The notes: generated by a model not told the origin, from the letters alone. Shown: positions 7,059-48,569, counted from the first letter of the stretch. The stretch is 64,000 bases of DNA from Spirochaetota bacterium (GCA_035380905.1 DAOSYC010000001.1:30207-94206), one strand, 5' to 3'. Translations and numbers: made by a program.

Positions 7059-8921
7059 TTATTCGAAATCCGCCGGAGGAATAACATCCTTCCCTGTTTT
7101 TTTCTGCGCATCAAGAAGCCGCTGACGGAGGCGGTTCAGGTTGTCAAAAAACTCCTGCGGAACCTCATCCTCCTCCTTGTATATTTTTTCTATCCTTTCA
7201 AGCTTTTCAAGGAAACTCTTCACGCGGATAGAGAACTGAGTGGTATACTCCGCCATGGTATACTCGCGGTCAAATATATCCTTAAAAAGATCTTTAATGT
7301 CACTGTATTTCGGGATTAACCCGATTGGCGTCTCAATAGCATCATACTCGTTGTGGATACGCCCTTCCATCCACATGACCCATACTTTCTTGTCCACTTT
7401 TTCGTTCAGAAACTTTCCGTTTTCTTTGAGAAAGTAATTCGTTGAAAACACAAGGGGAGTCTTTTTCAGCTTCCTTCCAAACTCAAGGTGGTTCTTAATA
7501 TATCGTCCCAGGGGCACCACAAGAAAGTCAAGATTCGCCATGGGGCTGAAATTCCTCACGCCGCTTTTCCCGATGGTCGCGGCAGTTGTTTCAGACTCCA
7601 GACTTGCGCCGATAAACACCCCATGCCCCCAGTCCAGACTCTGGAACACCGGTACGGAGGTATCGGAATCACGGCCGCCGTAAATGACGCCGCTGAACTG
7701 CACGCCGTCGGGGTCGTCCAGTTTCGGATCAACATTTTCAAGCTCACTGAGGCGGATGGTATACCGTGCGTTTTTATGTGCAGGCAGTATCTCCTTGCCG
7801 TCCTTGTCAGTATTTCCTTTTTTCCATTCACCGGAAAAGTTATACCCCTCATCGGGAATATCACTCCCCATTCCGAGCCAGTAGGGTTTACCGTCATTAA
7901 TAAGGATATTGGAAAAAATCAGCTCCCGCGGTGACGCGAGGACATCAAAGATAAGGGGATCGTCCACAGGGTTTACATCTTCAATGATGCCGAAAATGCC
8001 CTGTTCAATATTGACCGCATAGGCCATCCCGTCATCTCCCATACGCAGGTAGGCAATATCGTCCCCCACAATTGTCTGTCCGGGAATCATTGCCGTGGAG
8101 GTCTTGCCGCATGCGCTGGGGAAGGCGCCGGTAAAATACGTGATCCTGTTCTTGCCCTTCGGTTTGGCCCCCATGATAAACATATGTTCAGTAAGCCAGT
8201 CCTCTTTGTTCGCCTTGCTGATAGCGAGACGCAACGCAAGCTTCTTTAATCCAAGGCTGTTCCCTGCGTACTGATTGTTCATTGTGAATACACGGTTTTC
8301 TTTCAGGTCGATATACACCCTTCTCTTATCAACATTTTTGCTGTTGCCCCGTTCGTCAAGCTCACCAGCTGAATGGATGAAATAAAAGAAATCCTCTGAC
8401 CCTTTAAGGGTCTTGAAAAACTCATATCCCGTACGATAGAGAAGGTCTTCACTGTGCGCAACATAGGAGGAGTCCGTTATCTGCAGCGCGGCAATTGAGA
8501 ATTTCGAATGTAACGGGCCCAGGCAGAAAAACCGTACCAGGGCCTCCTTCCCTTTCATTACACCATCCATGATACCGTACACTTCTTCCAGAGCCTCTTC
8601 CCTCGGTTTGGTATTAATAACCTTGCTCATTTTCATATCAGGGGTTACCAGGACACTTGTGTTTGCCTTGTCCCTGGCCTGGTCAGAATATCCGTCATAA
8701 TGGACAGTATGCCCCTTCATTGACAATGCACGCTCCTCTCCGGTCTCAAGAGCCAGCTGACGGACATAATTAATATCATCTTTGCTGTCGGTAATGACCG
8801 TCACCTTTGACGGTTTGCAGAGCGTAACATACTCTTCAACTATTTTCATAACATGGGCATTATTGAGAGCCTCAAGTTTTTTAAGGTTCGCTTCATCCAG
8901 TACATTTCGATCAATGTTCAC
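7059..8921 (-). CDS. pckG: Phosphoenolpyruvate carboxykinase (GTP-dependent)
   Basis: Length 620 aa. Kinase-1a P-loop of GTP-PEPCK (FPSACGKTSTAM) and the conserved YNFSGEW / GVIYGGRDSD segments. Confidence 0.9.
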   Translation of the reverse strand: MNIDRNVLDEANLKKLEALNNAHVMKIVEEYVTLCKPSKVTVITDSKDDINYVRQLALETGEERALSMKGHTVHYDGYSDQARDKANTSVLVTPDMKMSKVINTKPREEALEEVYGIMDGVMKGKEALVRFFCLGPLHSKFSIAALQITDSSYVAHSEDLLYRTGYEFFKTLKGSEDFFYFIHSAGELDERGNSKNVDKRRVYIDLKENRVFTMNNQYAGNSLGLKKLALRLAISKANKEDWLTEHMFIMGAKPKGKNRITYFTGAFPSACGKTSTAMIPGQTIVGDDIAYLRMGDDGMAYAVNIEQGIFGIIEDVNPVDDPLIFDVLASPRELIFSNILINDGKPYWLGMGSDIPDEGYNFSGEWKKGNTDKDGKEILPAHKNARYTIRLSELENVDPKLDDPDGVQFSGVIYGGRDSDTSVPVFQSLDWGHGVFIGASLESETTAATIGKSGVRNFSPMANLDFLVVPLGRYIKNHLEFGRKLKKTPLVFSTNYFLKENGKFLNEKVDKKVWVMWMEGRIHNEYDAIETPIGLIPKYSDIKDLFKDIFDREYTMAEYTTQFSIRVKSFLEKLERIEKIYKEEDEVPQEFFDNLNRLRQRLLDAQKKTGKDVIPPADFE

Positions 8922-9441: not shown

Positions 9442-10338
9442 TTAAAGAAGTGCTGTACTGAAATACCGTTCAGCGCGGTCAGGCAGTATTGTCACCACAC
9501 GGTTCCTGCCGTTATCCAGATGGAGCGCCGCAAACACATTCGCTCCTGAGGATGTCCCCACAAGAAGCCCTTCCTCTCTTGAAAGCCTGCGTGTCACCTC
9601 AATTGCCTCATCGTCGGAAACAGTCAGGACGCCGTCAACCATGCTCACGTCAAGGACATCAGGTATAAACCCGTCTCCTATTCCCTGGATCTGATGCAGT
9701 CCCGGCTCTCCGCCCAAAAGCGCAGCGCTGTTTTTCGGCTCAACAGCATATACTTTTACTGAAGGATTTTTCTCTTTCAGGAACTTTCCTATTCCCTGCA
9801 GGGTCCCTCCGCTTCCCACGCCGGCGACGAACACATCGATATCTCCGTTCATATCGTTCCATATTTCCGGCGCTGTCTGTGAGTAATGGATATGGGGGTT
9901 GTGGGGATTCACAAACTGGTTCGCGATAAAAAATTTTTCAGGATCGGAGGATGTAATGGACCGCAGCCTGTCAAGGCACCCGTTCAGGCTCTCCCCTGCG
10001 GGAGTCAGTTCAATATCACCCCCGAATGCGTGAATTATTTTTTTTCTCTCTTCACTCATATTTTCCGGCATAATACAGATGACCCGGTACCCCTTCTGCA
10101 CGCCCACAAGGGTAAGGCCGATACCGGTGTTTCCTGAAGTGGCTTCGATAATTGTCATCCCCGGCTTCAGGGTACCCTCTTCTTCCGCCTTCTCGATTAT
10201 ATTTACAGCAACCCGGTCCTTCACACTCCCGCCGGGATTGAGGAATTCAGCTTTCGCAAAAACCTTTCCGGACGACAGTTTTCCAAGTTTGATCATCGGG
10301 GTGTTCCCGACGCTTTCAAGAATTGATGATATCAGCAT
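9442..10338 (-). CDS. cysK: Cysteine synthase A (O-acetylserine sulfhydrylase, PLP-dependent)
   Basis: GNTPMIKL...KAEFLNPGGSVKDRVA...ATSGNTGIGLT...GVGSGGTLQG are the PALP-family signatures. Confidence 0.9.
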   Translation of the reverse strand: MLISSILESVGNTPMIKLGKLSSGKVFAKAEFLNPGGSVKDRVAVNIIEKAEEEGTLKPGMTIIEATSGNTGIGLTLVGVQKGYRVICIMPENMSEERKKIIHAFGGDIELTPAGESLNGCLDRLRSITSSDPEKFFIANQFVNPHNPHIHYSQTAPEIWNDMNGDIDVFVAGVGSGGTLQGIGKFLKEKNPSVKVYAVEPKNSAALLGGEPGLHQIQGIGDGFIPDVLDVSMVDGVLTVSDDEAIEVTRRLSREEGLLVGTSSGANVFAALHLDNGRNRVVTILPDRAERYFSTALL

Positions 10339-10871
10339 TTCTGTTCTCCGTAGAATAAATCATGAAACGATACAGTACCGTCACTTGAAAAAGTCAAGGT
10401 AAAAAAGCCAATACCTGTTGGCGGCTTCTCTAACTTCCAGGATGAATTGCGGGAAACAAAGCGGCCTCAGTTACATACTACCCTGTGCATTCCCGGCGGA
10501 GCCGTATCACGAATGGTTCTCAAGTAATTCGCCGAATATCCCGAGTTGGTAATATCCGGTTTTTTTAAGTGCCCCGTATACACTGGTTCTCCATGTACAA
10601 ATGGACGCTCCAATACTGTTTCCGTCCCCGGGGATTACGATTACAATATATATAAATTTGTATATGCTTATTGCTATCTGCGTTATCACGAAGCACTGTA
10701 AGGAATAATTGAATTGTTGCTGATTAAATGGTACACTATTGATTGCCCGCATTTTTTATTTGAATTCTTACGGGTCATGTACTGCTATTGCATATACCGC
10801 ATGACACAGATCATGCACCGCTCCGGCGACATCATACCGCAGCGTATTTTATTCAGGAACACGGACACGAC

Positions 10872-12740
10872 ATGAGACGGGAATATGACGTAATAGTAAT
10901 CGGCGCAGGACATGCCGGCGCTGAAGCAGCACTTGCCGCCGCGAGGATGGGACACCCCACACTGATGCTTACCGGCAACCTTGATACAATATGCCAGATG
11001 AGCTGCAACCCCGCAATTGGCGGCCTTGCCAAGGGACATCTCGTAAGGGAGATTGACGCCATGGGAGGCGAGATGGGAAAAACCATCGACGCCACTGGCA
11101 TCCATTTCAAGATGCTTAACATGAGCAAGGGACCCGCGGTCTGGGCCCCCAGGGCGCAGGCGGACAAGAAGGCATACCAGTTCCGGATGAAGGAGGTCAT
11201 GGAGAAACAGAAAAACCTCACTATCATTCAGGACATTGCGGCATCCCTCATTTCGGAACACAATACAATGCAGGGTGTTATTACGGTACGTCAGCAGGAG
11301 CATCGGGCAAAGGCTGTTATCCTCTGCACCGGGACCTTCCTCAAGGGACTTATTCACATCGGGGAATACAACGAACGCTGCGGAAGGCTCGGCGACTTTT
11401 CCGCGGAACATCTCTCAGATTCACTCCGCACCCTGGGTTTCCCGGTACTCCGTCTCAAGACCGGCACACCCCAGCGGGTCAACGGCGACACGATTGACTT
11501 TTCCCGGTGCGAGATTCAGCATCCCGACGAGACCCCGCATCCTTTTTCCTATACCACGGAACGCATCGACCGCCCCCAGATACCCTGCTGGATAACTTAC
11601 ACCTCCGCGGAGACACATGAAATTATCAACAGGAACATCCACCGCTCTCCGCTGTACGGGGGGAAGATAAAAGGGACCGGCCCGCGATACTGTCCGTCAA
11701 TAGAGGACAAGGTGGTGCGTTTCTCGGACAAGCCCCGCCACCAGCTTTTTCTGGAACCGGAGGGCCTTGAAACCAACGAATACTATATCAACGGGTTTTC
11801 GAGCTCCCTCCCGGAGGACGTGCAGCTTGAGATGGTACGGACCATACGCGGCCTTGAGAACGTGGAGGTAATGCGGCCAGCCTATGCCGTAGAATACGAC
11901 TTTGTGCCCCCCACGGAACTGAAAGCAACACTTGAAACCAAACGCATTGAAGGCCTTTACCATGCCGGCCAGATAAACGGCACCTCGGGATACGAGGAGG
12001 CCGCTGCCCAGGGATTTATTGCGGCGGTGAACGCGGTACGGAAAATCAGGGGCGACGAACCGCTGATAATAACCCGCTCCGAGGCATACACGGGGGTCCT
12101 CATTGACGACCTTATAACAAAAGGCGCAGAGGAACCCTACCGCCTGTTTACGTCCCGGGCGGAACACCGCCTCCTCCTCCGCCAGGACAACGCGGACCAG
12201 CGCCTTATGAAATACGGGCACGAACTTGGACTTATTCCCGATGACCGCATGGAAGCAATGAAGGAGAAATACAGCCGTGCGGATGCGCTCATTGATTCAT
12301 TTTCAAAGACAATGATCACCGTGGACGAAGCCCTCGCCTCTATCATTGAACAACGCGGTTCCACGGCACGTCCCGGCGAGAAGCTCCCCGCGAGCAAGCT
12401 CCTGAAACGGCCGGAAATTAAAATTGCCGACCTGACCCCCTACTTCAGCGGTGAAATTGCCGGGGACATTGCCCCGGTCGTTGAAATGGTAATCAAATAT
12501 GAAGGATACATCAAAAAGGACATGGACCGGATCAAAAAGTTTGAAAAGATCGAAACCATGAAAATCCCGGATGACCTTAACTATAGCGAAATAAAAGGGC
12601 TCAAGAATGAAGCCCGCGAGAAACTGGCACGCATCAGGCCCCAGACCGCAGGTCAGGCCATGAGAATATCCGGGGTCGACCCTTCCGATATCTCAATACT
12701 GATCGTCCATCTCGAATCAATCCTAAGGAAGAAGAGGTAG
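10872..12740 (+). CDS. mnmG: tRNA uridine-5-carboxymethylaminomethyl modification enzyme MnmG (GidA)
   Basis: [30 protein letters not shown]-binding N-terminus with MnmG-typical conservation throughout. I chose the ATG at 10872 over the ORF-track start at 10788, because the upstream 28 codons are His/Pro-rich with no counterpart in MnmG. This gene is about 55% GC, against about 38% for the window. Confidence 0.9.
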
Positions 12741-12747
12741 TTTCCAC

Positions 12748-13488
12748 GTGGAACACACAACACTAACAGCACTTGCCGGAGACAGAGGACTGTCTCTGGA
12801 TATTGGAAATGCGGATAAACTTATCCGGTACGGAACAATGATCCATGCATCAAACTCCCTGTTTAACCTCACGGGAATGAAATCCCCCGAGGACATCATC
12901 ACGACACTGCTCCTGGAAAGCATAACCCCCCTATGCGACATAAATGTTCCACGTGGAACATCTGTTGCCGACATCGGGACCGGCTCGGGGATCCCCGGCA
13001 TTCCCCTTGCGATCATGTTCAGCGGGCTCTATTTTACTTTATTTGACTCAAACGGAAAGAAGTGCAGATTTATTAACGAAGCAGCACAGTCTCTCGGCCT
13101 CGGTAACGTTACTGTCGTTGAGGGCCGCGCGGAAGAGCTGCTGCAGAAACCGGAATACCGGGAGCGTTTCGGGCTGTCTGTTTCCCGGGCCCTTGCCCAC
13201 CCATACGCCGCTGCCGAACTTTGTATTCCCGCAGTACGGCCCGGGGGGTTGATATATATCTACTCTCATCTTACAACCCTGGACCTTCCGGTGGAAATAA
13301 CGGGCCACATACAGGAGCTCGGCGCATCTCCGGTACCTTTTGATTCATATTTCAGTTATGGAATCAACCCCGGCGGTATTCTCATGAAAAAGACGACGGC
13401 AACCCCTTCCCGCTTTCCGCGGCGCTTTGCGGCAATCAAAAGAGACGCCGGGAAGATAATAGTGGAGGCGTCTCCGGCTGAAGTATAA
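12748..13488 (+). CDS. rsmG: 16S rRNA (guanine527-N7)-methyltransferase RsmG (GidB)
   Basis: GTG start 8 nt after the mnmG stop. Has the DIGTGSGIPGIPLAI SAM-binding motif and FTLFDSNGKKCRFI. The mnmG-rsmG pairing is classical. Confidence 0.85.
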   Translation: MEHTTLTALAGDRGLSLDIGNADKLIRYGTMIHASNSLFNLTGMKSPEDIITTLLLESITPLCDINVPRGTSVADIGTGSGIPGIPLAIMFSGLYFTLFDSNGKKCRFINEAAQSLGLGNVTVVEGRAEELLQKPEYRERFGLSVSRALAHPYAAAELCIPAVRPGGLIYIYSHLTTLDLPVEITGHIQELGASPVPFDSYFSYGINPGGILMKKTTATPSRFPRRFAAIKRDAGKIIVEASPAEV

Positions 13489-13514
13489 AGCGTATTACAC
13501 AAAGTACCTTTGCC

Positions 13515-13547
13515 GGCCCGCCGGGATTTACCAAATCCCGGCGGGCC
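13515..13547. repeat. Perfect 12-bp GC hairpin (ggcccgccggga / tcccggcgggcc, 9-nt loop) 27 nt downstream of rsmG, lacking a U tract
   Basis: Read directly from the sequence. Candidate terminator or REP-like element at the start of a roughly 1.1-kb ORF-free region. Confidence 0.4.
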
Positions 13548-14589
13548 CATGCCCTAACCACCGCACTAAAATTACACCACATTCTGTATTTCCCCTCAGC
13601 CCGGTCGATGTGTTGCAACAGCAGGTAGTACACGATAACGGTGCACAGCACATTGATACAGCATCCTCCATCACCTCTACATCATCCGGAAATACCAGAT
13701 GCGTGTCCTGCCGCCCGCTACTATGTTGACCCGAACTTTAAAAGATATTTCCCCCAAGGAGACAACCCGAAACACGCGCATTCCATAACATCCGCTATGT
13801 TTATGGTGCCCCCGCAATACTTTCGTTTTGAAAATCCTTTTCTCTGTTCACATCATTATTGCATCTCCGATAATCACCCGCCTCCCGTACACGGGCACCA
13901 TCGCTTCTGGTACATCTGCAATCATAATGATTACAGGTTGTATTTATGTTTCCCTTCGATTATCCCGTGAAATGATACCATAGAAAAGGAAGTTGCTTCT
14001 TTCTATTTTCAATACTCTGCACACTGCTATAACGAATTTACCTGAAACAACAGTTACACATGATTGGCATGATTACCCAAACAGCAATCTCATGAATCCT
14101 GTATTCAGAGTATCCCTGTGTCTCCGGCTTCCCTCTGTAGAGATTTTTTTATTACATGTATCTTACGGAAGAAGGGAATGCGCCATTATACGTTTCAATA
14201 TTTCCAGCATATCTCTTGTTTACTTAAAGCTCTTTCCAAAATATAAAACGATTCACCCCGGCATCGCGCCAACCCTTCCCGTTGCAGTTCATTATATAGA
14301 ATACATGAGCGATACATCATCACGACTGACCCCACCATGACATGCATCTTCATCAGCATATCATCATCGACCTTCACCCCATCCTGGCTTCCCGGTTCAC
14401 TGTATAGATGCGTCTCAAATAATACATAAATACAGTTGCATCACAGGTATTGCATGAAGGGATGTCCGGCATTATAAGCCAATTGCCCCGCCCCTGCTCT
14501 TCCGCTCCCTGTATACACTTGACATCCTCCTGCATCCATAGTATCGATTATTATATTGATTGTCACTTTCCCTGTAATGGAGTCATAGT

Positions 14590-15168
14590 ATGAAAGTCCT
14601 TATACGCGGGGGCAGCATTGCCGCAGGGGTCCTGGCCGGTGTGTGTTATTCGCATTTACTGAAAGAAGCTTTTTCTGAGTCCGGGATTGAGATAATAAAC
14701 CACTCCCGTGAGAAAGACTCCTCCTTCGAGGGAGTATGGAGCTTTTACGATGACATTGATCCCGTAAAGCCGGATATCCTGATACTCCACTTCGGCCTTG
14801 ATGACATGTACAGACCGGTGTACCGGTCCGAGTTCAAGGAAAACCTCGTTCAGATTGTACGCCTTGCGCGGCAGCGGTGTAATCCGGAGATTGCCCTCCT
14901 CACCTCTCAGCCTTTCGAGGACAACGGAGAAATGGACACCGCACAGATATATTACCGCACCATCCGTGAAGTGGCTCTTGATCTGCAATGCACATATGTT
15001 CCAGTACATCTTCTCTGGGCGGGCTATCTTTCAGAAACCGGACAACGCCACCGGGACCTGGTCAATACCGATTATCGCTATCCCAATGATGCAGGGCACC
15101 GGCTCTTTTTCGATATCCTTTACGAAAGAATAGTATCAAAGATACAGGGAGCCCAACGGGAAGAATAA
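14590..15168 (+). CDS. Putative SGNH/GDSL-like hydrolase
   Basis: RBS GGAG 7 nt upstream. Has VLIRGGSIAAG (block-I-like Ser), ILILHFGLDDM, and a C-terminal NDAGHRLF (DxxH block V). The assignment is moderate because block III GxND is not evident. Confidence 0.45.
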   Translation: MKVLIRGGSIAAGVLAGVCYSHLLKEAFSESGIEIINHSREKDSSFEGVWSFYDDIDPVKPDILILHFGLDDMYRPVYRSEFKENLVQIVRLARQRCNPEIALLTSQPFEDNGEMDTAQIYYRTIREVALDLQCTYVPVHLLWAGYLSETGQRHRDLVNTDYRYPNDAGHRLFFDILYERIVSKIQGAQREE

Positions 15169-15574: not shown

Positions 15575-15613
15575 ATATCGTAATGACATTTTTATCGTCC
15601 TTGTATCTCATGA

Positions 15614-15646
15614 AAAGCGCACCACGTGGTGCGCTTTTCTTTTTCC
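15614..15646 (+). terminator. Rho-independent terminator after the PC4-like gene
   Basis: aaaagcgcaccacgtggtgcgctttt is a perfect stem, followed by ttctttttcc. Confidence 0.8.
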
Positions 15647-15792
15647 ATTATCATACGATACAGCAGGCGAATCAATATCATCCCGGTAAAATTTACAATA
15701 TATCTTGAAAAAATGATTCTCTTTCTCAACGAATATTATTACAGTATCCCGGTCATTATAGTATACGAATTATTATATTTTTCAGGAGGCAC

Positions 15793-15964
15793 CATGAGAG
15801 AAATCCGCGCAAAACTTATGACCATCAACAGGGAGCACCATGACCCGGAGATCCTTCAACTTCTTGACTTGATCGCCTGGAAGCTTGAGGAATACGAAAA
15901 CAGAATCATCAATCTTGACAGGGTAATGCGTGACATTCTCACAGACAGAAGACCGTCGATGTAA
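15793..15964 (+). CDS. Small (57 aa) hypothetical helical protein immediately upstream of lexA
   Basis: Strong RBS (caGGAGGcacc ATG). Translates as MREIRAKLMTINREHHDPEILQLLDLIAWKLEEYENRIINLDRVMRDILTDRRPSM. The stop lies 70 nt before the lexA start, in the same orientation. No recognisable domain. Confidence 0.4.
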
Positions 15965-15974
15965 AAAAAAATGC

Positions 15975-16003
15975 TTGACACCATACGCATTATTGCTAAT
16001 CAT
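15975..16003 (+). promoter_or_regulatory. Candidate sigma70-type promoter for lexA (-35 TTGACA, 17-nt spacer, -10-like AATCAT)
   Basis: Perfect TTGACA at 15975-15980. The -10 is weak and alternatives exist (TATGTA further downstream). No recognisable LexA palindrome was found by eye. Confidence 0.3.
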
Positions 16004-16034
16004 ATGTATATATTTCAATCCGGGGGAATCGGCA

Positions 16035-30564: not shown

Positions 30565-30608
30565 ATAAAAAAACGGCTGCCTTTAAAGACAGCCGTTTTT
30601 TTTATTGC
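30565..30608. terminator. Bidirectional rho-independent terminator between convergent genes
   Basis: ataaaaaaacggctg-cctttaaaga-cagccgtttttttttatt has an A-run, a 9-bp stem and a T-run, so it serves both strands. Confidence 0.8.
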
Positions 30609-33978: not shown

Positions 33979-34459
33979 CCTATTGAATTCCTGAATATTT
34001 AATTATTTTATTTAAAAAATATTTAGCAACATCATACTCCCAGACTATACACAAATTTACAACAATTATCAACAGGCAAACCACCCCTGCTAACAGGTAA
34101 TCCCCAGCCTGCTAACAAATTTAAAAATTTTTTTTATTTCATTTTGCGGTTCAATTAATTTCTTGCAAAAATTCCATGATTTAATCTATGCTATAGGGGA
34201 ATCGGGGAAAGGCCTGACTCCTTCAGGGCCACTTCTTGTGAATATTATCACTTTTTATGTCGTGTAACAGGTCTACTTTTCGTTATCACAAACTTTATTA
34301 AAAAAATTAAGCACAATATTACATTTTCAGCATTGCATTTACTCACTTTTTCTCCACATCCTGAAATAATATATAAACATGGATGAACAAAAAGTGTGTT
34401 TATATGTAGATTTATAAACAAAGATATCAACATTTGTTAATAACTTTCGGGATATACCT
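33979..34459. promoter_or_regulatory. AT-rich dnaA upstream region, part of a putative bipartite oriC with the dnaA promoter
   Basis: Non-coding stretch of 480 bp with DnaA-box-like 9-mers: TTATCAACA at 34066-34074 and TTCTCCACA at 34350-34358 (one mismatch each to TTATCCACA). It also has long A/T tracts at about 34000-34025 and 34110-34150 that could act as the unwinding element. Confidence 0.5.
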
Positions 34460-35821
34460 ATGATTCTTTCTAAACATGAAATATGGGACAAGGCATTATA
34501 TAATATTCAGTCTATTATAAATAAGCAGTCCTTTGATATGTGGCTCAAAGATACTGAGCCAATTTCCTATAATGAAAATAAAATGACTATTCGTGTTGCT
34601 GATGAGGTTGCACAGCGTCATATTTCTGATAACTACTCCAGCACTATTTCGTCAATTGTGAGTGATATCGCACATGCGACTATCATGTGCGAGTTTACTA
34701 CAGATGAAACGAAATCTGATCCTGATAACGATAGTACTACTTCTGATTCTCAGCCGGAGAAGAATATAATGATGTTCAGTAAGGAGCCTGAATCAGGTAA
34801 TCCTATGCTGAAACCTGAATATACCTTTGAGAATTTTGTTGTCGGTCCAAACAATCAGCTTCCCCATGCTGCAGCGGTTTCAGTTTCCAAAGCTCCTGCA
34901 ACACAATATAATCCGCTTTTTATTTACGGTGGTACCGGTCTTGGGAAAACCCATCTGATGCAGGCAATCGGCCACAGCATAATGAAAGAAAAGCCGTATA
35001 TGAAAGTTCTGTATATAACAACGGAACAATTCCTAAATGAATTTATTCACGCTATCAGTACAAATACTCTTCCAAGTTTTAAAATGAAATACCGGGATGT
35101 GGATATCCTGTTGATAGATGACATTCAGTTCATTGAGAAGAAGGAGCAGACGCAGGAGGAATTTTTTCACACTTTTAATACCCTCCATAACAATAAAAAA
35201 CAGATTATTATTTCAAGTGACAGGCCTCCAAAAGATCTTTCAACCCTTGAGGTTCGTCTCAGGACACGTTTTGAATGGGGACTTATTACTGATATTCAGC
35301 CTCCAAATGTTGAAACACGTGAAGCAATTCTCCGTAACAAGGCGGAGCGCCTTAATATTGATATTCCTGATGAAATTCTCAACTTCATCGCCAGGAGAAT
35401 AAAATCAAGTATTCGTGCTCTTGAAGCAGCGCTGATCCGTCTGAATGCTGTTTCATCTTTATCGAGTGAACCAATATCAATTTATCATGCAAAAAACCAT
35501 CTAAAGGATCTTTTTGATGAAGATACCAGTAAGAAAATAACCATTACTGATATAATACAGCGCGTGTCAGAAAAATATAATATTTCCGTTGAAGATCTTA
35601 AATCCAAGAGCAGACACAGCAGAGTGGTACATCCACGGTTTATTGCGATGTATATATCACGTAAACTCACTGATATGACAACGGTTGATATAGGGAGAGA
35701 ATTTGGTGACAGGGATCATTCCACGGTCCTCAATGCAATGAACAATGTTGAAAAAATGATGGCTGACGATGAAGATTTTCAGGAAACTGTAGAGGATCTT
35801 ATATCTGAAATCCGCAGTTAA
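34460..35821 (+). CDS. dnaA: Chromosomal replication initiator protein DnaA
   Basis: AAA+ Walker A (IYGGTGLGKTHLMQAIGH), box VII, and the C-terminal DNA-binding signature (IAMYISRKLTDMTTVDIGREFGDRDHSTV). Confidence 0.95.
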   Translation: MILSKHEIWDKALYNIQSIINKQSFDMWLKDTEPISYNENKMTIRVADEVAQRHISDNYSSTISSIVSDIAHATIMCEFTTDETKSDPDNDSTTSDSQPEKNIMMFSKEPESGNPMLKPEYTFENFVVGPNNQLPHAAAVSVSKAPATQYNPLFIYGGTGLGKTHLMQAIGHSIMKEKPYMKVLYITTEQFLNEFIHAISTNTLPSFKMKYRDVDILLIDDIQFIEKKEQTQEEFFHTFNTLHNNKKQIIISSDRPPKDLSTLEVRLRTRFEWGLITDIQPPNVETREAILRNKAERLNIDIPDEILNFIARRIKSSIRALEAALIRLNAVSSLSSEPISIYHAKNHLKDLFDEDTSKKITITDIIQRVSEKYNISVEDLKSKSRHSRVVHPRFIAMYISRKLTDMTTVDIGREFGDRDHSTVLNAMNNVEKMMADDEDFQETVEDLISEIRS

Positions 35822-36082
35822 TATACTGTTAATGCACTGTGTATTACTGTTGAAGTGTTGTGAATAAAATTCTTGTTCTTTTTGTTTTTTCATCGTATAT
35901 AATACTATAAAGACTTTTTCTAATAAATAACATTATTTAAAATATTTATCAACATGTTGCATTTTTTATAAGTCCTGAAGGGTTCAGTGGTTTTCGTGTT
36001 ATCCACATATTTTTTAACCCTACTATTGCTATTATAAAAACTAAATCTATATGTTAATATTAATTATAGTAAGGGATCAAAT
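35822..36082. promoter_or_regulatory. dnaA-dnaN intergenic DnaA-box cluster, the second part of the putative oriC
   Basis: Perfect TTATCCACA at 35999-36007. One-mismatch boxes TGTGAATAA (reverse complement TTATTCACA) at 35859-35867 and TTATCAACA at 35946-35954. About 75% AT. Confidence 0.6.
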
Positions 36083-46949: not shown

Positions 46950-48569
46950 GTGAAAAAAAGTGATCTGTTACAGTGGATACTTTCCTTTGGAACATTCCTT
47001 ACCGGATATACTATTACCTTTCATTCACCATGTGCATCAGGGTCAATTGGTGTATTTATTATTTTTGCTGCTTCAGCGCTTCTGTTTTCACCAATATTAA
47101 ACAGCTATATTCCTGGAATTAAAAGAAGTTCAACTGGTGTGACTCTTCAGATAACAGCGGGAGTTCTTTCCTTCATACTTGCGTTATTTATAACCTATCC
47201 CCACTGCAGAGGAATACATATTCCATTAATACAGGAAAATGCAAGAATTTCCTACTATGAACAGGGCGGTTCCGGAGGATATGGTAATAATGCAGGAATT
47301 GAAGACCGTGCGGGAGTTATTGAGGAGGACAATGAAGCAGGCGAAAGTACGGGAGTTGAATCATCACAGATTGAAACGGTGAGAGATGATGAAGTGTCAT
47401 CCGAAAGAACAGCTGCAGAAGAAGGAACAGGTCGAAGCAGTGAACCAGTATCAGGACGTACCATGGAGAGGACATCCTCAGGGTCTTCAGTATTGGAAAG
47501 GATTGCATATAATGGGGATGCCGCACGGACTGTTGGAGGAAGAAATATATCATCCAATATAACAAAAGAAGTCGCCGGGACTGGAGCCGGGTCAACAGGT
47601 ACGGCATTGAATAAAGGAACAGCAGCACATGATATGAAACAAGCTTCCGGACGGGAATATGCAGTTTCCGCACAACAAAGGACTAACGCGGGTTCCGTAA
47701 GAACAGATCTGAAAAAAGAAACCAGAGAGTTGCCGAACGGCAGCCGGTATTCCGGAACTACATTTCGAAGTGCACCGGAAGGTTCCGGTGTGATGAAATG
47801 GCCTGACGGCAGTACATATTCAGGTGAGTGGAAAAATGGAAAAAGAAATGGTACCGGAACAATGAAATGGTCAGGTATCAGCAGTCAACGGGTAACGGGT
47901 GATGGCGGCACAATGCCTTTGATGAGTCTGTGGGGTTATGACCGCCGGGGAGATGCGGCATCTGCCGTTGTCGCATATTCCGGAACCTGGAAAGATGATA
48001 AGCCTTTCAGAAAGGGGGCATTCCGCTGGAGCAACAACGATTATTACCGGGGTTCATTTTCTAATGCACAGCGTCATGGATATGGCGTGTATCACTATAG
48101 TCACGGAACGGAATACCGCGGACAGTGGCGAAATAATAAGGCACACGGACAAGGGTCAATTGCGTGGAAAAATGGTGACAGGTATTCAGGTGGATGGAGC
48201 AATGACCGGAGAGAGGGAACGGGAACCTATATATGGAGTCGTGGTATACGCTACAACGGTTCCTGGCATAACGATATGATGCATGGAACAGGTGTTATTA
48301 CATGGAAAAACGGCAACAGGTATGCAGGCCAGTGGAAGAATAACCATCGGGAAGGAAAAGGTGTATATACCTGGAAAAAAGGTGATAGATATGAAGGCGT
48401 ATTCGTGGACGATAAACGGAACGGTTCAGGGGTTTATGTCTGGGCTGATGGTAGAGAGTATACGGGGCAGTGGAAAAACGGCCTCATGGAAGGTTCGGGA
48501 CAATTAAAATATCCTGACGGGAAAGTACTTCAGGGAACATTCAGAAATAATAATTATATCGGGAAATAG
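46950..48569 (+). CDS. Membrane-anchored MORN-repeat protein
   Basis: GTG start with RBS AGGAG. N-terminal hydrophobic helices, then a Ser/Gly/Glu/Thr-rich linker, then about 10 MORN repeats (YSGEWKNGKRNGTGTMKW, YRGQWRNNKAHGQGSIAW, YSGGWSNDRREGTGTYIW, YAGQWKNNHREGKGVYTW, YTGQWKNGLMEGSGQLKY ...). Confidence 0.75.
   Translation: MKKSDLLQWILSFGTFLTGYTITFHSPCASGSIGVFIIFAASALLFSPILNSYIPGIKRSSTGVTLQITAGVLSFILALFITYPHCRGIHIPLIQENARISYYEQGGSGGYGNNAGIEDRAGVIEEDNEAGESTGVESSQIETVRDDEVSSERTAAEEGTGRSSEPVSGRTMERTSSGSSVLERIAYNGDAARTVGGRNISSNITKEVAGTGAGSTGTALNKGTAAHDMKQASGREYAVSAQQRTNAGSVRTDLKKETRELPNGSRYSGTTFRSAPEGSGVMKWPDGSTYSGEWKNGKRNGTGTMKWSGISSQRVTGDGGTMPLMSLWGYDRRGDAASAVVAYSGTWKDDKPFRKGAFRWSNNDYYRGSFSNAQRHGYGVYHYSHGTEYRGQWRNNKAHGQGSIAWKNGDRYSGGWSNDRREGTGTYIWSRGIRYNGSWHNDMMHGTGVITWKNGNRYAGQWKNNHREGKGVYTWKKGDRYEGVFVDDKRNGSGVYVWADGREYTGQWKNGLMEGSGQLKYPDGKVLQGTFRNNNYIGK

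What the first reader, a model, noticed from the sequence alone, without database searches (positions are those of the whole stretch)
13489..14589. A 1.1-kb ORF-free, compositionally unusual gap between rsmG and the SGNH gene
The rest of the window is densely coding with short intergenic regions, yet this stretch has only short, non-credible ORFs that lack an RBS and are His/Pro/Cys-rich in every frame. It begins with a perfect 12-bp GC hairpin (13515-13547) and has local GC well above the window average. It contains a TTGACA at about 14519 upstream of the SGNH gene. It could hold a non-coding RNA, the decayed remnant of a gene, or the edge of the higher-GC block that includes mnmG and rsmG.
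Basis: seen in the sequence. Interest (0 to 1): 0.5.

Follow-up and report, generated by a model that had tools for sequence, protein, structure and literature searches.

The report
Species-specific non-coding spacer after rsmG
The 1.1-kb stretch between rsmG and the SGNH hydrolase gene is a real gene-free spacer that has grown only in this uncultured spirochaete; I found a hairpin at one end and a conserved promoter block at the other, and no gene or structured RNA in between, so it is probably ordinary.

Summary
The gap is real: 1,101 bp from the rsmG stop to the SGNH ATG, with identical length in nine independent assemblies of the same Spirochaetota species.

- **No gene or known RNA found.** There is no Rfam or tRNA hit and no Pfam or NCBIfam hit in six frames (PHROGs gave one non-significant match). 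There are no repeats, and coding potential is negative in all six frames. RNA folding is no better than shuffles except at the hairpin at 13515-13547.
- **The expansion is lineage-specific.** Synteny (mnmG-rsmG-SGNH-PC4-lexA-xseAB) is conserved, but the same spacer is -4, 74, 363 and 374 bp in relatives.
- **Only one block is conserved.**
- **Composition.** The GC claim is only partly right: 0.446 against a window mean of 0.424. The real oddity is a C>G skew of -0.275, the most negative in the window. The spacer lies on the replichore where the + strand is C-rich, but the skew is about 2.5 times the local third-codon-position value.

Best reading: a non-coding expanded spacer, functional only at its ends. 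Its C-rich, G-poor, unstructured, untranslated + strand transcript would be a good Rho substrate, but that step is inferred. A fully eroded gene cannot be excluded, because the blastx-like searches failed their internal control. Interest is low.

The parts
13489..14589 (.). Whole rsmG-SGNH intergenic spacer, 1,101 bp; a species-specific expansion.
   Evidence: The flanking ORFs were identified by Pfam. Length is identical in nine independent contigs. The same spacer is -4, 74, 363 and 374 bp in relatives.
13515..13547 (+). Perfect 15-bp stem / 3-nt loop hairpin, 27 nt after the rsmG stop. It is terminator-like or a 3'-end stabilising structure, but has no U-tract on either strand.
   Evidence: See (90-nt context -37.1 kcal/mol, z = -5.9). 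Canonical U-tract terminators exist elsewhere in the window (15612-15639, 30567-30602), so this one is non-canonical.
13548..14515 (+). Body of the spacer: C-rich, G-poor, unstructured, with no credible ORF, no repeats and no homologue. Probably eroded DNA. Its + strand transcript has rut-like composition.
   Evidence: Whole-gap counts are C 313 and G 178. Of 78-nt windows, 72% have C/G > 1.5, against 14-18% elsewhere. Fold z is about 0 and coding potential is negative. There are no significant family, Rfam, plasmid or phage matches. It does not align to relatives.
14516..14565 (+). Promoter/operator-like block, the only part conserved in relatives. It contains TTGACA (14519-14524), TAGTAT (14539-14544) and the motif TAGTATCGATTATTATA (14539-14555).
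   Evidence: The local alignments to L013 and L012 cover only this block. The motif recurs at 15759-15777, upstream of the small ORF that precedes lexA, with a chance expectation of 0.00.
14579..14582 (+). GGAG ribosome-binding site, 7 nt before the SGNH ATG (14590).
   Evidence: Read directly from the sequence.
12748..13488 (+). rsmG (upstream flank). It contains a conserved parS-like palindrome at 12945-12960.
   Evidence: Pfam PF02527; parS-like site.
14590..15168 (+). SGNH/GDSL hydrolase gene (downstream flank), the first gene of the SGNH-PC4 unit that precedes lexA-xseAB.
   Evidence: Pfam PF13472; conserved gene order.

Best explanation
The stretch is a non-coding intergenic spacer that has expanded to 1.1 kb only in this Spirochaetota species. 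Function sits at its two ends.

- **rsmG side.** A very stable hairpin 27 nt after the stop marks and protects the 3' end of the mnmG-rsmG transcript. It lacks a U-tract, so it is not a canonical intrinsic terminator.
- **SGNH side.** A roughly 50-bp promoter/operator block (TTGACA ... TAGTATCGATTATTATA), followed by a GGAG RBS, drives the SGNH-PC4 unit.
- **Middle (about 970 bp).** This is most likely eroded DNA with no product of its own. [quoted passage not shown] That makes it a good substrate for Rho, so the spacer would in effect insulate the downstream DNA-damage gene cluster from the housekeeping operon.

**Shown:** the anatomy, the absence of coding and structure signals, the lineage-specific length, and conservation of the promoter block alone.

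**Inferred:** that the hairpin is the 3' end, that the block is the active promoter, that Rho acts here, and that the middle has no function.
For: - **Real and stable.** Nine independent contigs carry the gap with no indels.
- **No gene.** The longest ORFs are 109 and 115 aa without an RBS. Coding potential is negative in six frames. Pfam and NCBIfam give nothing in six frames, and PHROGs gives only one non-significant match (E = 0.022). The longest - strand open stretch (81 aa) has no relative among 1.84 billion representative proteins. Recoding a single stop type opens no frame.
- **No RNA element.** Rfam, tRNA and fold z-scores near 0 apart from the hairpin all point the same way.
- **Not repetitive or mobile by any test available.** There is no second copy in the 64 kb, no tandem or significant inverted repeats, and no plasmid or phage match.
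- **Lineage-specific expansion.** The gene order is the same in relatives, but the spacer is -4 bp (RsmG 50% identical), 74 bp (49%), 363 bp (75%) and 374 bp (81%). Only 14516-14565 aligns.
- **Rut-like composition.** C/G is 1.76 overall, and 72% of 78-nt windows exceed 1.5 against 14-18% elsewhere. This meets the composition criterion used by RhoTermPredict (PMC6407284). Rho-associated 3' ends in the spirochaete Borrelia show a raised C:G ratio (PMC10319736).
- **Direction of the skew.** It fits the replichore. Third-codon-position GC skew is negative in 19 of 22 genes left of dnaA and positive in 22 of 22 genes to its right.
Against: - The spacer does not look like equilibrated junk of this genome. 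GC of 0.446 is the highest of all intergenic regions (0.24-0.43). The skew of -0.275 is about 2.5 times the mean third-position skew of its replichore (-0.105) and more extreme than any gene or other spacer there. It is therefore either young or under some constraint I have not identified.
- Rho needs only about 80 nt, so 1 kb is not explained by that role.
- The -10 element is ambiguous. TAGTAT lies 14 bp after TTGACA, and the hexamer at 17 bp is TATCGA.
- There are no expression data.
- The blastx-like searches missed an exact 53-aa control sequence that is in the collection. A remnant of a poorly known or short protein cannot be ruled out.
Confidence: 0.6

Rival explanations
1. The spacer is the remnant of a gene (or a piece of foreign DNA carrying one) that was inserted or inactivated here, most likely on the - strand, and has since decayed beyond recognition.
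For: GC is coding-like (0.446) where other spacers are 0.24-0.43. The + strand C>G skew equals a purine/G-rich - strand, of the same magnitude as the most skewed real gene in the window (46950-48569, +0.27). The roughly 730 extra bp relative to the closest relatives indicate gain of DNA.
Against: There are 17-20 stops per - strand frame and no patch of positive coding potential. No significant family hit appears in any frame, and the longest open stretch has no homologue. No relative has a gene at this position. A sequence decayed this far would be expected to have lost its compositional signature too.
Confidence: 0.2
2. The G-depleted composition is itself selected. The spacer would be a dedicated Rho-dependent termination or insulation zone that uncouples the SGNH-PC4-lexA-xseAB cluster from mnmG-rsmG, with which it was once co-transcribed.
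For: In the most distant relatives SGNH overlaps rsmG by 4 bp or follows it after 74 bp. In the clade that has its own conserved promoter block, the spacer is long. Spacers of relatives that no longer align are also pyrimidine-rich on the + strand (L012 skew -0.26, L011 -0.13, L013 -0.085). The composition is rut-like and unstructured. The hairpin lacks a U-tract, so another termination mode is needed.
Against: Rho loading needs about 80 nt, not 1 kb (PMC6407284). C>G runs of similar length occur on the antisense strands of ordinary genes. Part of the skew is explained by the replichore. No rho gene or transcript data are available.
Confidence: 0.15
3. The spacer encodes a non-coding RNA. One candidate is a roughly 1-kb G-rich - strand transcript running from a divergent promoter (ATTACA-17-TATAAT, 14578 to 14550) to the hairpin at 13547-13515. 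Another is a long 3' UTR of rsmG with a sponge-like role.
For: The - strand promoter-like site scores 10/12 with a perfect TATAAT, and that TATAAT is kept in L013. The hairpin could close such a transcript.
Against: There is no Rfam match and no structure beyond shuffles. The body is not conserved in relatives. The - strand TATAAT is lost in L012. Promoter-like hits are consensus matches only (7 found against 2.9 expected).
Confidence: 0.07
4. The extra 730 bp or so is a non-autonomous mobile element (MITE-like or an IS remnant).
For: It is present in this species and absent from the two closest relatives. One relative's contig (L011) ends 171 bp after rsmG.
Against: There is no second copy in 64 kb, even with 7-nt words. 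There are no significant terminal inverted repeats, no transposase signal and no plasmid or phage match. The only ORF that gene callers place in it (P0107) is a one-member cluster seen on 3 contigs.
Confidence: 0.05
5. The spacer contains one or more unannotated small protein genes.
For: Some gene callers call a 53-aa - strand ORF (14535-14374). A 60-aa - strand ORF (14377-14195) has a weak AGGA upstream.
Against: Coding potential is negative. Neither ORF is conserved in relatives at the protein level. P0107 is a singleton cluster. The 81-aa stretch holding the 60-aa ORF has no homologue among 1.84 billion representatives. RBS-like strings are expected by chance on a G-rich strand.
Confidence: 0.03

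Closest known systems
Rho-dependent terminator regions (rut sites)
   Same: [quoted passage not shown] C/G exceeds 1 in most 78-nt windows, which is the composition criterion of RhoTermPredict (PMC6407284). Rho-associated 3' ends in the spirochaete Borrelia also show a raised C:G ratio (PMC10319736).
   Different: It is about ten times longer than a rut site needs to be. Neither Rho dependence nor a termination point was shown. The composition is partly accounted for by replication-strand bias.
Intrinsic (Rho-independent) terminators and 3'-end stabilising hairpins
   Same: It is a GC-rich, perfect stem-loop a few tens of nt after the stop codon of the last gene of an operon.
   Different: There is no U-tract on either strand, whereas canonical terminators of the same genome (15612-15639, 30567-30602) have one.
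Sigma-70-type promoter with adjacent operator
   Same: It has a perfect TTGACA and an A/T-rich downstream block, conserved across species about 70 nt upstream of the ATG. The operator-like motif recurs upstream of the lexA-proximal small ORF.
   Different: No good -10 hexamer lies at 16-18 bp (TAGTAT at 14 bp, TATCGA at 17 bp). The transcription start and any binding protein are unknown.
Expanded spacers or eroded pseudogene remnants in bacterial genomes
   Same: It is lineage-specific extra DNA with no ORF, no homologue and no conservation.
   Different: Its composition (coding-like GC, extreme skew) is not that of the other spacers in this genome, and no ancestral gene can be named.

Membership tests
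Rfam non-coding RNA families | Covariance-model match at or near the family's gathering score | tested here: not met
   There were 0 hits at gathering scores for the window. In the local E-value scan, the best scores were 12-13 bits with E of 3 or more.
Structured non-coding RNA (any) | Folding energy clearly below dinucleotide shuffles, or covariation in relatives | tested here: not met
   z ranges from -1.8 to +1.1 (one window at -2.8) outside the hairpin. Relatives do not align, so covariation cannot be assessed.
Intrinsic terminator | GC-rich stem-loop shortly after the stop codon | tested here: met
   The hairpin at 13515-13547 has a perfect 15-bp stem, with z = -5.9.
Intrinsic terminator | U-tract immediately 3' of the stem | tested here: not met
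   The stem is followed by CAUGCCC on the + strand and GGCAAAGG on the - strand. The consensus scan does not list it.
Rho-dependent terminator | C>G, G-poor stretch of about 78 nt or more | tested here: met
   Median C/G is 1.86, and 72% of windows exceed 1.5. The criterion comes from PMC6407284.
Rho-dependent terminator | Unstructured and untranslated RNA | tested here: met
   The + strand MFE is only -14 to -36 kcal/mol per 150 nt with z about 0. No + strand ORF has an RBS.
Rho-dependent terminator | Termination that depends on Rho (bicyclomycin-sensitive 3' ends); rho gene present | not testable with these tools
   No transcript data are available.
Sigma-70-type promoter | -35 hexamer close to TTGACA | tested here: met
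   TTGACA is at 14519-14524, identical in L012 and L013.
Sigma-70-type promoter | -10 hexamer close to TATAAT at 16-18 bp | tested here: inconclusive
   TATCGA lies at 17 bp (3/6) and TAGTAT at 14 bp (4/6). The scan does not report this pair.
Pseudogene | Residual similarity to a protein family, possibly across frames | tested here: inconclusive
   Pfam and NCBIfam six-frame scans were negative. The PHROGs scan gave only one non-significant match (phrog_22454, E = 0.022). The large-database searches were negative but failed their internal control. One 81-aa stretch was searched exhaustively with a negative result.
Pseudogene | Intact gene at the same position in relatives | tested here: not met
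   Relatives have -4 to 374 bp with no conserved gene.
IS or MITE-type mobile element | Terminal inverted repeats with target duplication; several copies | tested here: not met
   There are no significant inverted repeats and no other copy in the window. Whole-genome copy number could not be tested.
Chromosomal replication origin (oriC next to gidA/gidB) | Cluster of DnaA boxes and an AT-rich unwinding element | tested here: not met
   No DnaA box with 1 mismatch or fewer lies in 13489-14589. Boxes and the skew switch lie at dnaA, around 34-36 kb.

The most novel reading that the evidence does not exclude
The G-depleted, unstructured 1-kb body is maintained by selection. It could be an unusually long Rho-loading 'insulator', or a C-rich untranslated RNA tail of the mnmG-rsmG transcript with a function of its own. 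In either case it would have arisen when the DNA-damage cluster (SGNH-PC4-lexA-xseAB) became transcriptionally independent of rsmG in this spirochaete lineage.
Probability: 0.1. Interest if true: 0.4.

Novelty: already known. Interest (0 to 1): 0.15.

Why it matters
There is little at stake. The result removes a candidate: no hidden gene, known RNA family or mobile element was found, and the region behaves like a lineage-specific spacer with ordinary signals at its ends.

Three things have modest value:
- a clean example of stepwise spacer growth (-4, 74, about 370, then 1,101 bp) between two genes that were once translationally coupled;
- a conserved promoter/operator motif shared by two units of a lexA-linked gene cluster in an uncultured spirochaete;
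- an unexplained compositional signature (coding-like GC and extreme C>G skew), which would be interesting only if transcript data showed it to be functional.

Tried and rejected
- **oriC next to gidA/gidB: rejected.** There are no DnaA boxes in the gap. The boxes and the GC3-skew switch lie at dnaA, around 34 kb.
- **parS in the gap: rejected.** The parS-like site is inside rsmG instead.
- **Alternative genetic code or stop recoding: rejected.** Every frame has all three stop types.
- **G-quadruplex or i-motif: none in the gap**.
- **Over-represented short motifs: nothing beyond composition**.
- **Population constraint: no statistical power.** The nine contigs are 99.5-99.8% identical. The gap has 4 of 116 variable sites, about average for 13.5-19 kb.
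- **Genome-contig scans: found nothing.** I tried the RsmG peptides and then the promoter pattern, so the lineage appears to be absent from that collection.
- **Metagenome-contig scan with the promoter pattern: returned only the L012 contig again**.
- **Chimeric six-frame queries in the search for homologous proteins: no hits, but unreliable**. Neither returned the 53-aa ORF P0107, which is an exact substring of the query and is in the collection. phmmer does find it locally (E = 2.5e-27). The negatives are therefore unreliable, at least for short proteins.
- **Plasmid and phage DNA searches: no match**.

Full report
**What is there.** The window comes from an uncultured Spirochaetota bacterium. 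The RsmG protein is identical to one that NCBI names 'MAG TPA ... [Spirochaetota bacterium]', and the locus lies on contig DAONIY010000005.1 of GCA_035405385.1. rsmG (PF02527) ends at 13488, and an SGNH/GDSL hydrolase gene (PF13472) starts at 14590. The 1,101 bp between them are present, with identical length and no indels, in nine independent contigs from ENA, JGI and NCBI assemblies. Only four SNPs fall in the gap, all in one contig. The gap is therefore real and not an assembly artefact.

**Check of the observation.**
- The hairpin is at the stated coordinates and is stronger than described: a perfect 15-bp stem and 3-nt loop at 13515-13547. A 90-nt context folds at -37.1 kcal/mol, z = -5.9.
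- The ORF claims hold. The longest ORFs are 109 and 115 aa with GTG/TTG starts. No + strand ORF has an RBS-like motif.
- His and Pro are 3-fold enriched in the + frames, and Cys is enriched in all frames.
- The GC claim is only partly right. The gap as a whole is 0.446 against a window mean of 0.424 (72nd percentile). GC is high only in the first and last 300 bp or so, and is 0.37-0.40 in the centre.
- It is nevertheless the GC-richest intergenic region of the window (the others are 0.24-0.43).
- The higher-GC block (PALP, mnmG, rsmG, SGNH; 0.50-0.55) continues on both sides, so the gap is not its edge.

**Is anything encoded?**
- Rfam gives no hit at gathering scores, and only 12-13-bit noise in a sensitive local scan. 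There is no tRNA or tmRNA.
- Sliding 150-nt folds on both strands are indistinguishable from dinucleotide shuffles, except where they include the hairpin.
- A 3-periodic Markov model trained on the window's own genes is positive over rsmG and SGNH and negative in all six frames throughout the gap.
- Six-frame translations hit nothing in Pfam or NCBIfam, and only one non-significant PHROG (E = 0.022).
- No frame becomes open if one stop type is recoded.
- There are no tandem repeats, no significant inverted repeats apart from the hairpin, and no second copy in the window even with 7-nt words. There is no match in the plasmid or phage collections.
- The longest open stretch on the G-rich - strand (81 aa) has no relative among 1.84 billion representative proteins.
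- Two blastx-like searches with concatenated open stretches returned nothing. I do not trust these negatives. Both queries contained, verbatim, a 53-aa ORF (P0107) that is in the collection, and local phmmer finds it at E = 2.5e-27, yet it was not returned.

**Relatives.** The gene order mnmG-rsmG-SGNH-PC4-(small ORF)-lexA-xseA-xseB is conserved, but the rsmG-SGNH spacer is not.

| Relative | RsmG identity | Spacer |
|---|---|---|
| P0005 contig | 50% | genes overlap by 4 bp |
| L015 | 49% | 74 bp |
| L012 | 75% | 363 bp |
| L013/L016 | 81% | 374 bp |
| window species | 100% | 1,101 bp |

About 730 bp are therefore peculiar to the window species. Global and local alignments, and tblastx, find only one conserved block. 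The small - strand ORFs that gene callers place in the spacers of different species are unrelated to each other. No RsmG between 81% and 100% identity turned up in the protein search, so intermediate relatives were not available. The lineage did not turn up in my two scans of the species-representative genome collection.

**The two ends.** The hairpin sits 27 nt after the rsmG stop but has no U-tract on either strand. Canonical hairpin-plus-U terminators do exist in this genome, after the PC4-like gene at 15612-15639 and at 30567-30602. I read the hairpin as a 3'-end or pause structure rather than a classical intrinsic terminator (inference).

At the other end, the conserved block is followed by a GGAG 7 nt before the ATG. 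Its -10 is ambiguous: TAGTAT lies 14 bp after TTGACA, and TATCGA lies at 17 bp. The consensus scan does not list the pair. Part of the block, TAGTAT(A)CGA(A)TTATTATA, recurs at 15759-15777, upstream of the conserved 56-aa ORF that precedes lexA (chance expectation 0.00). This suggests a shared operator or promoter element (inference).

**The skew.** Third-codon-position GC skew, expressed on the + strand, is negative in 19 of 22 genes left of dnaA (mean -0.105) and positive in 22 of 22 genes to its right. DnaA boxes cluster around dnaA. The origin is therefore at about 34 kb, and the gap lies where the + strand is expected to be C-rich.

That explains the sign but not the size. The gap's skew of -0.275 (binomial s.e. 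about 0.04) exceeds every gene and every other spacer on that replichore. Three possibilities remain:
- the DNA is young and carries a foreign signature;
- it is the ghost of a - strand gene;
- G-depletion is selected.

The spacers of relatives, although no longer alignable, are also pyrimidine-rich on the + strand (skew -0.26, -0.13, -0.085). This gives weak support to a persistent force.

**Mechanism I commit to (confidence 0.6).** This is a non-coding, species-specific expanded spacer whose function is confined to its ends. The body has no product. Because a read-through transcript would be untranslated, C-rich, G-poor (72% of 78-nt windows have C/G > 1.5, against 14-18% elsewhere) and unstructured, it has the composition that defines Rho loading sites (PMC6407284). 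The same composition accompanies Rho-associated 3' ends in the spirochaete Borrelia (PMC10319736). Rho would be expected to stop any transcription that passes the hairpin, so that the SGNH unit depends on its own promoter. The Rho step, the 3' end and the promoter activity are inferred, not shown.

**Rivals.**

| Explanation | Confidence |
|---|---|
| Fully eroded gene or foreign fragment | 0.20 |
| Selected Rho insulator | 0.15 |
| Non-coding RNA on either strand, including a possible - strand transcript from ATTACA-17-TATAAT at 14578-14550 | 0.07 |
| MITE-like element | 0.05 |
| Small proteins | 0.03 |

**Verdict.** The interpretation options are mostly unsupported, and what remains is an ordinary, if compositionally odd, intergenic spacer. 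I file it as 'already known' and rate interest at 0.15. Only transcript data, or a proper blastx, could raise that.

Noticed in passing
window 12945-12960 (inside rsmG): There is a perfect palindrome, TGTTCCACGTGGAACA, matching the parS consensus with 2 mismatches. The core GTTNCACGTGNAAC is present inside rsmG in the same-species contigs that cover this part of rsmG and in relatives L011, L012, L013 and L016. L015 has two matches, one inside rsmG and one at its start. This is probably the origin-proximal centromere site.
   Followed up: partly
window 14539-14555 and 15759-15777: The motif TAGTAT(A)CGA(A)TTATTATA occurs twice on the + strand. One copy is upstream of the SGNH gene, and the other is upstream of the conserved 56-aa ORF (15795-15965) that precedes lexA. 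Chance expectation is 0.00. It could be a shared operator or promoter element of the DNA-damage gene cluster.
   Followed up: partly
window about 15976-16020 (just upstream of lexA, ATG 16035): The block GCTTGACACCATACGCATTATTGCTAATCATATGTATATATTTCA is identical in L012, whose RsmG is only 75% identical, and nearly so in L016 and L015. It is a strongly constrained lexA promoter/operator, and a candidate SOS box of this lineage.
   Followed up: no
window 15795-15965: A 56-aa ORF (MREIRAKLMTINREHHDPEILQLL...) with a good RBS lies between the PC4-like gene and lexA. It is conserved at the protein level in L012 and has no Pfam family on record.
   Followed up: no
window 33979-36082: The third-codon-position GC skew of genes changes sign exactly at dnaA (34460), and DnaA-box matches cluster at 34066-34358 and 35859-36007. 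The window is therefore centred on the replication origin.
   Followed up: partly
window 9442-15168: A block of four genes (PALP enzyme, mnmG, rsmG, SGNH) has GC 0.50-0.55, against about 0.35-0.47 for the other genes. The synteny is conserved in relatives, so it is not an obvious island.
   Followed up: no
window 46950-48569: A MORN-repeat protein gene has the strongest positive GC skew of the window (+0.23 over the gene, up to +0.27 in 1.1-kb windows), the mirror image of the gap's value.
   Followed up: no
L011 (Ga0498922_0010072), locus end at 8912: The contig of the 73%-identical relative ends 171 bp after rsmG, inside the equivalent spacer. This could reflect a repeat or a coverage break there.
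   Followed up: no
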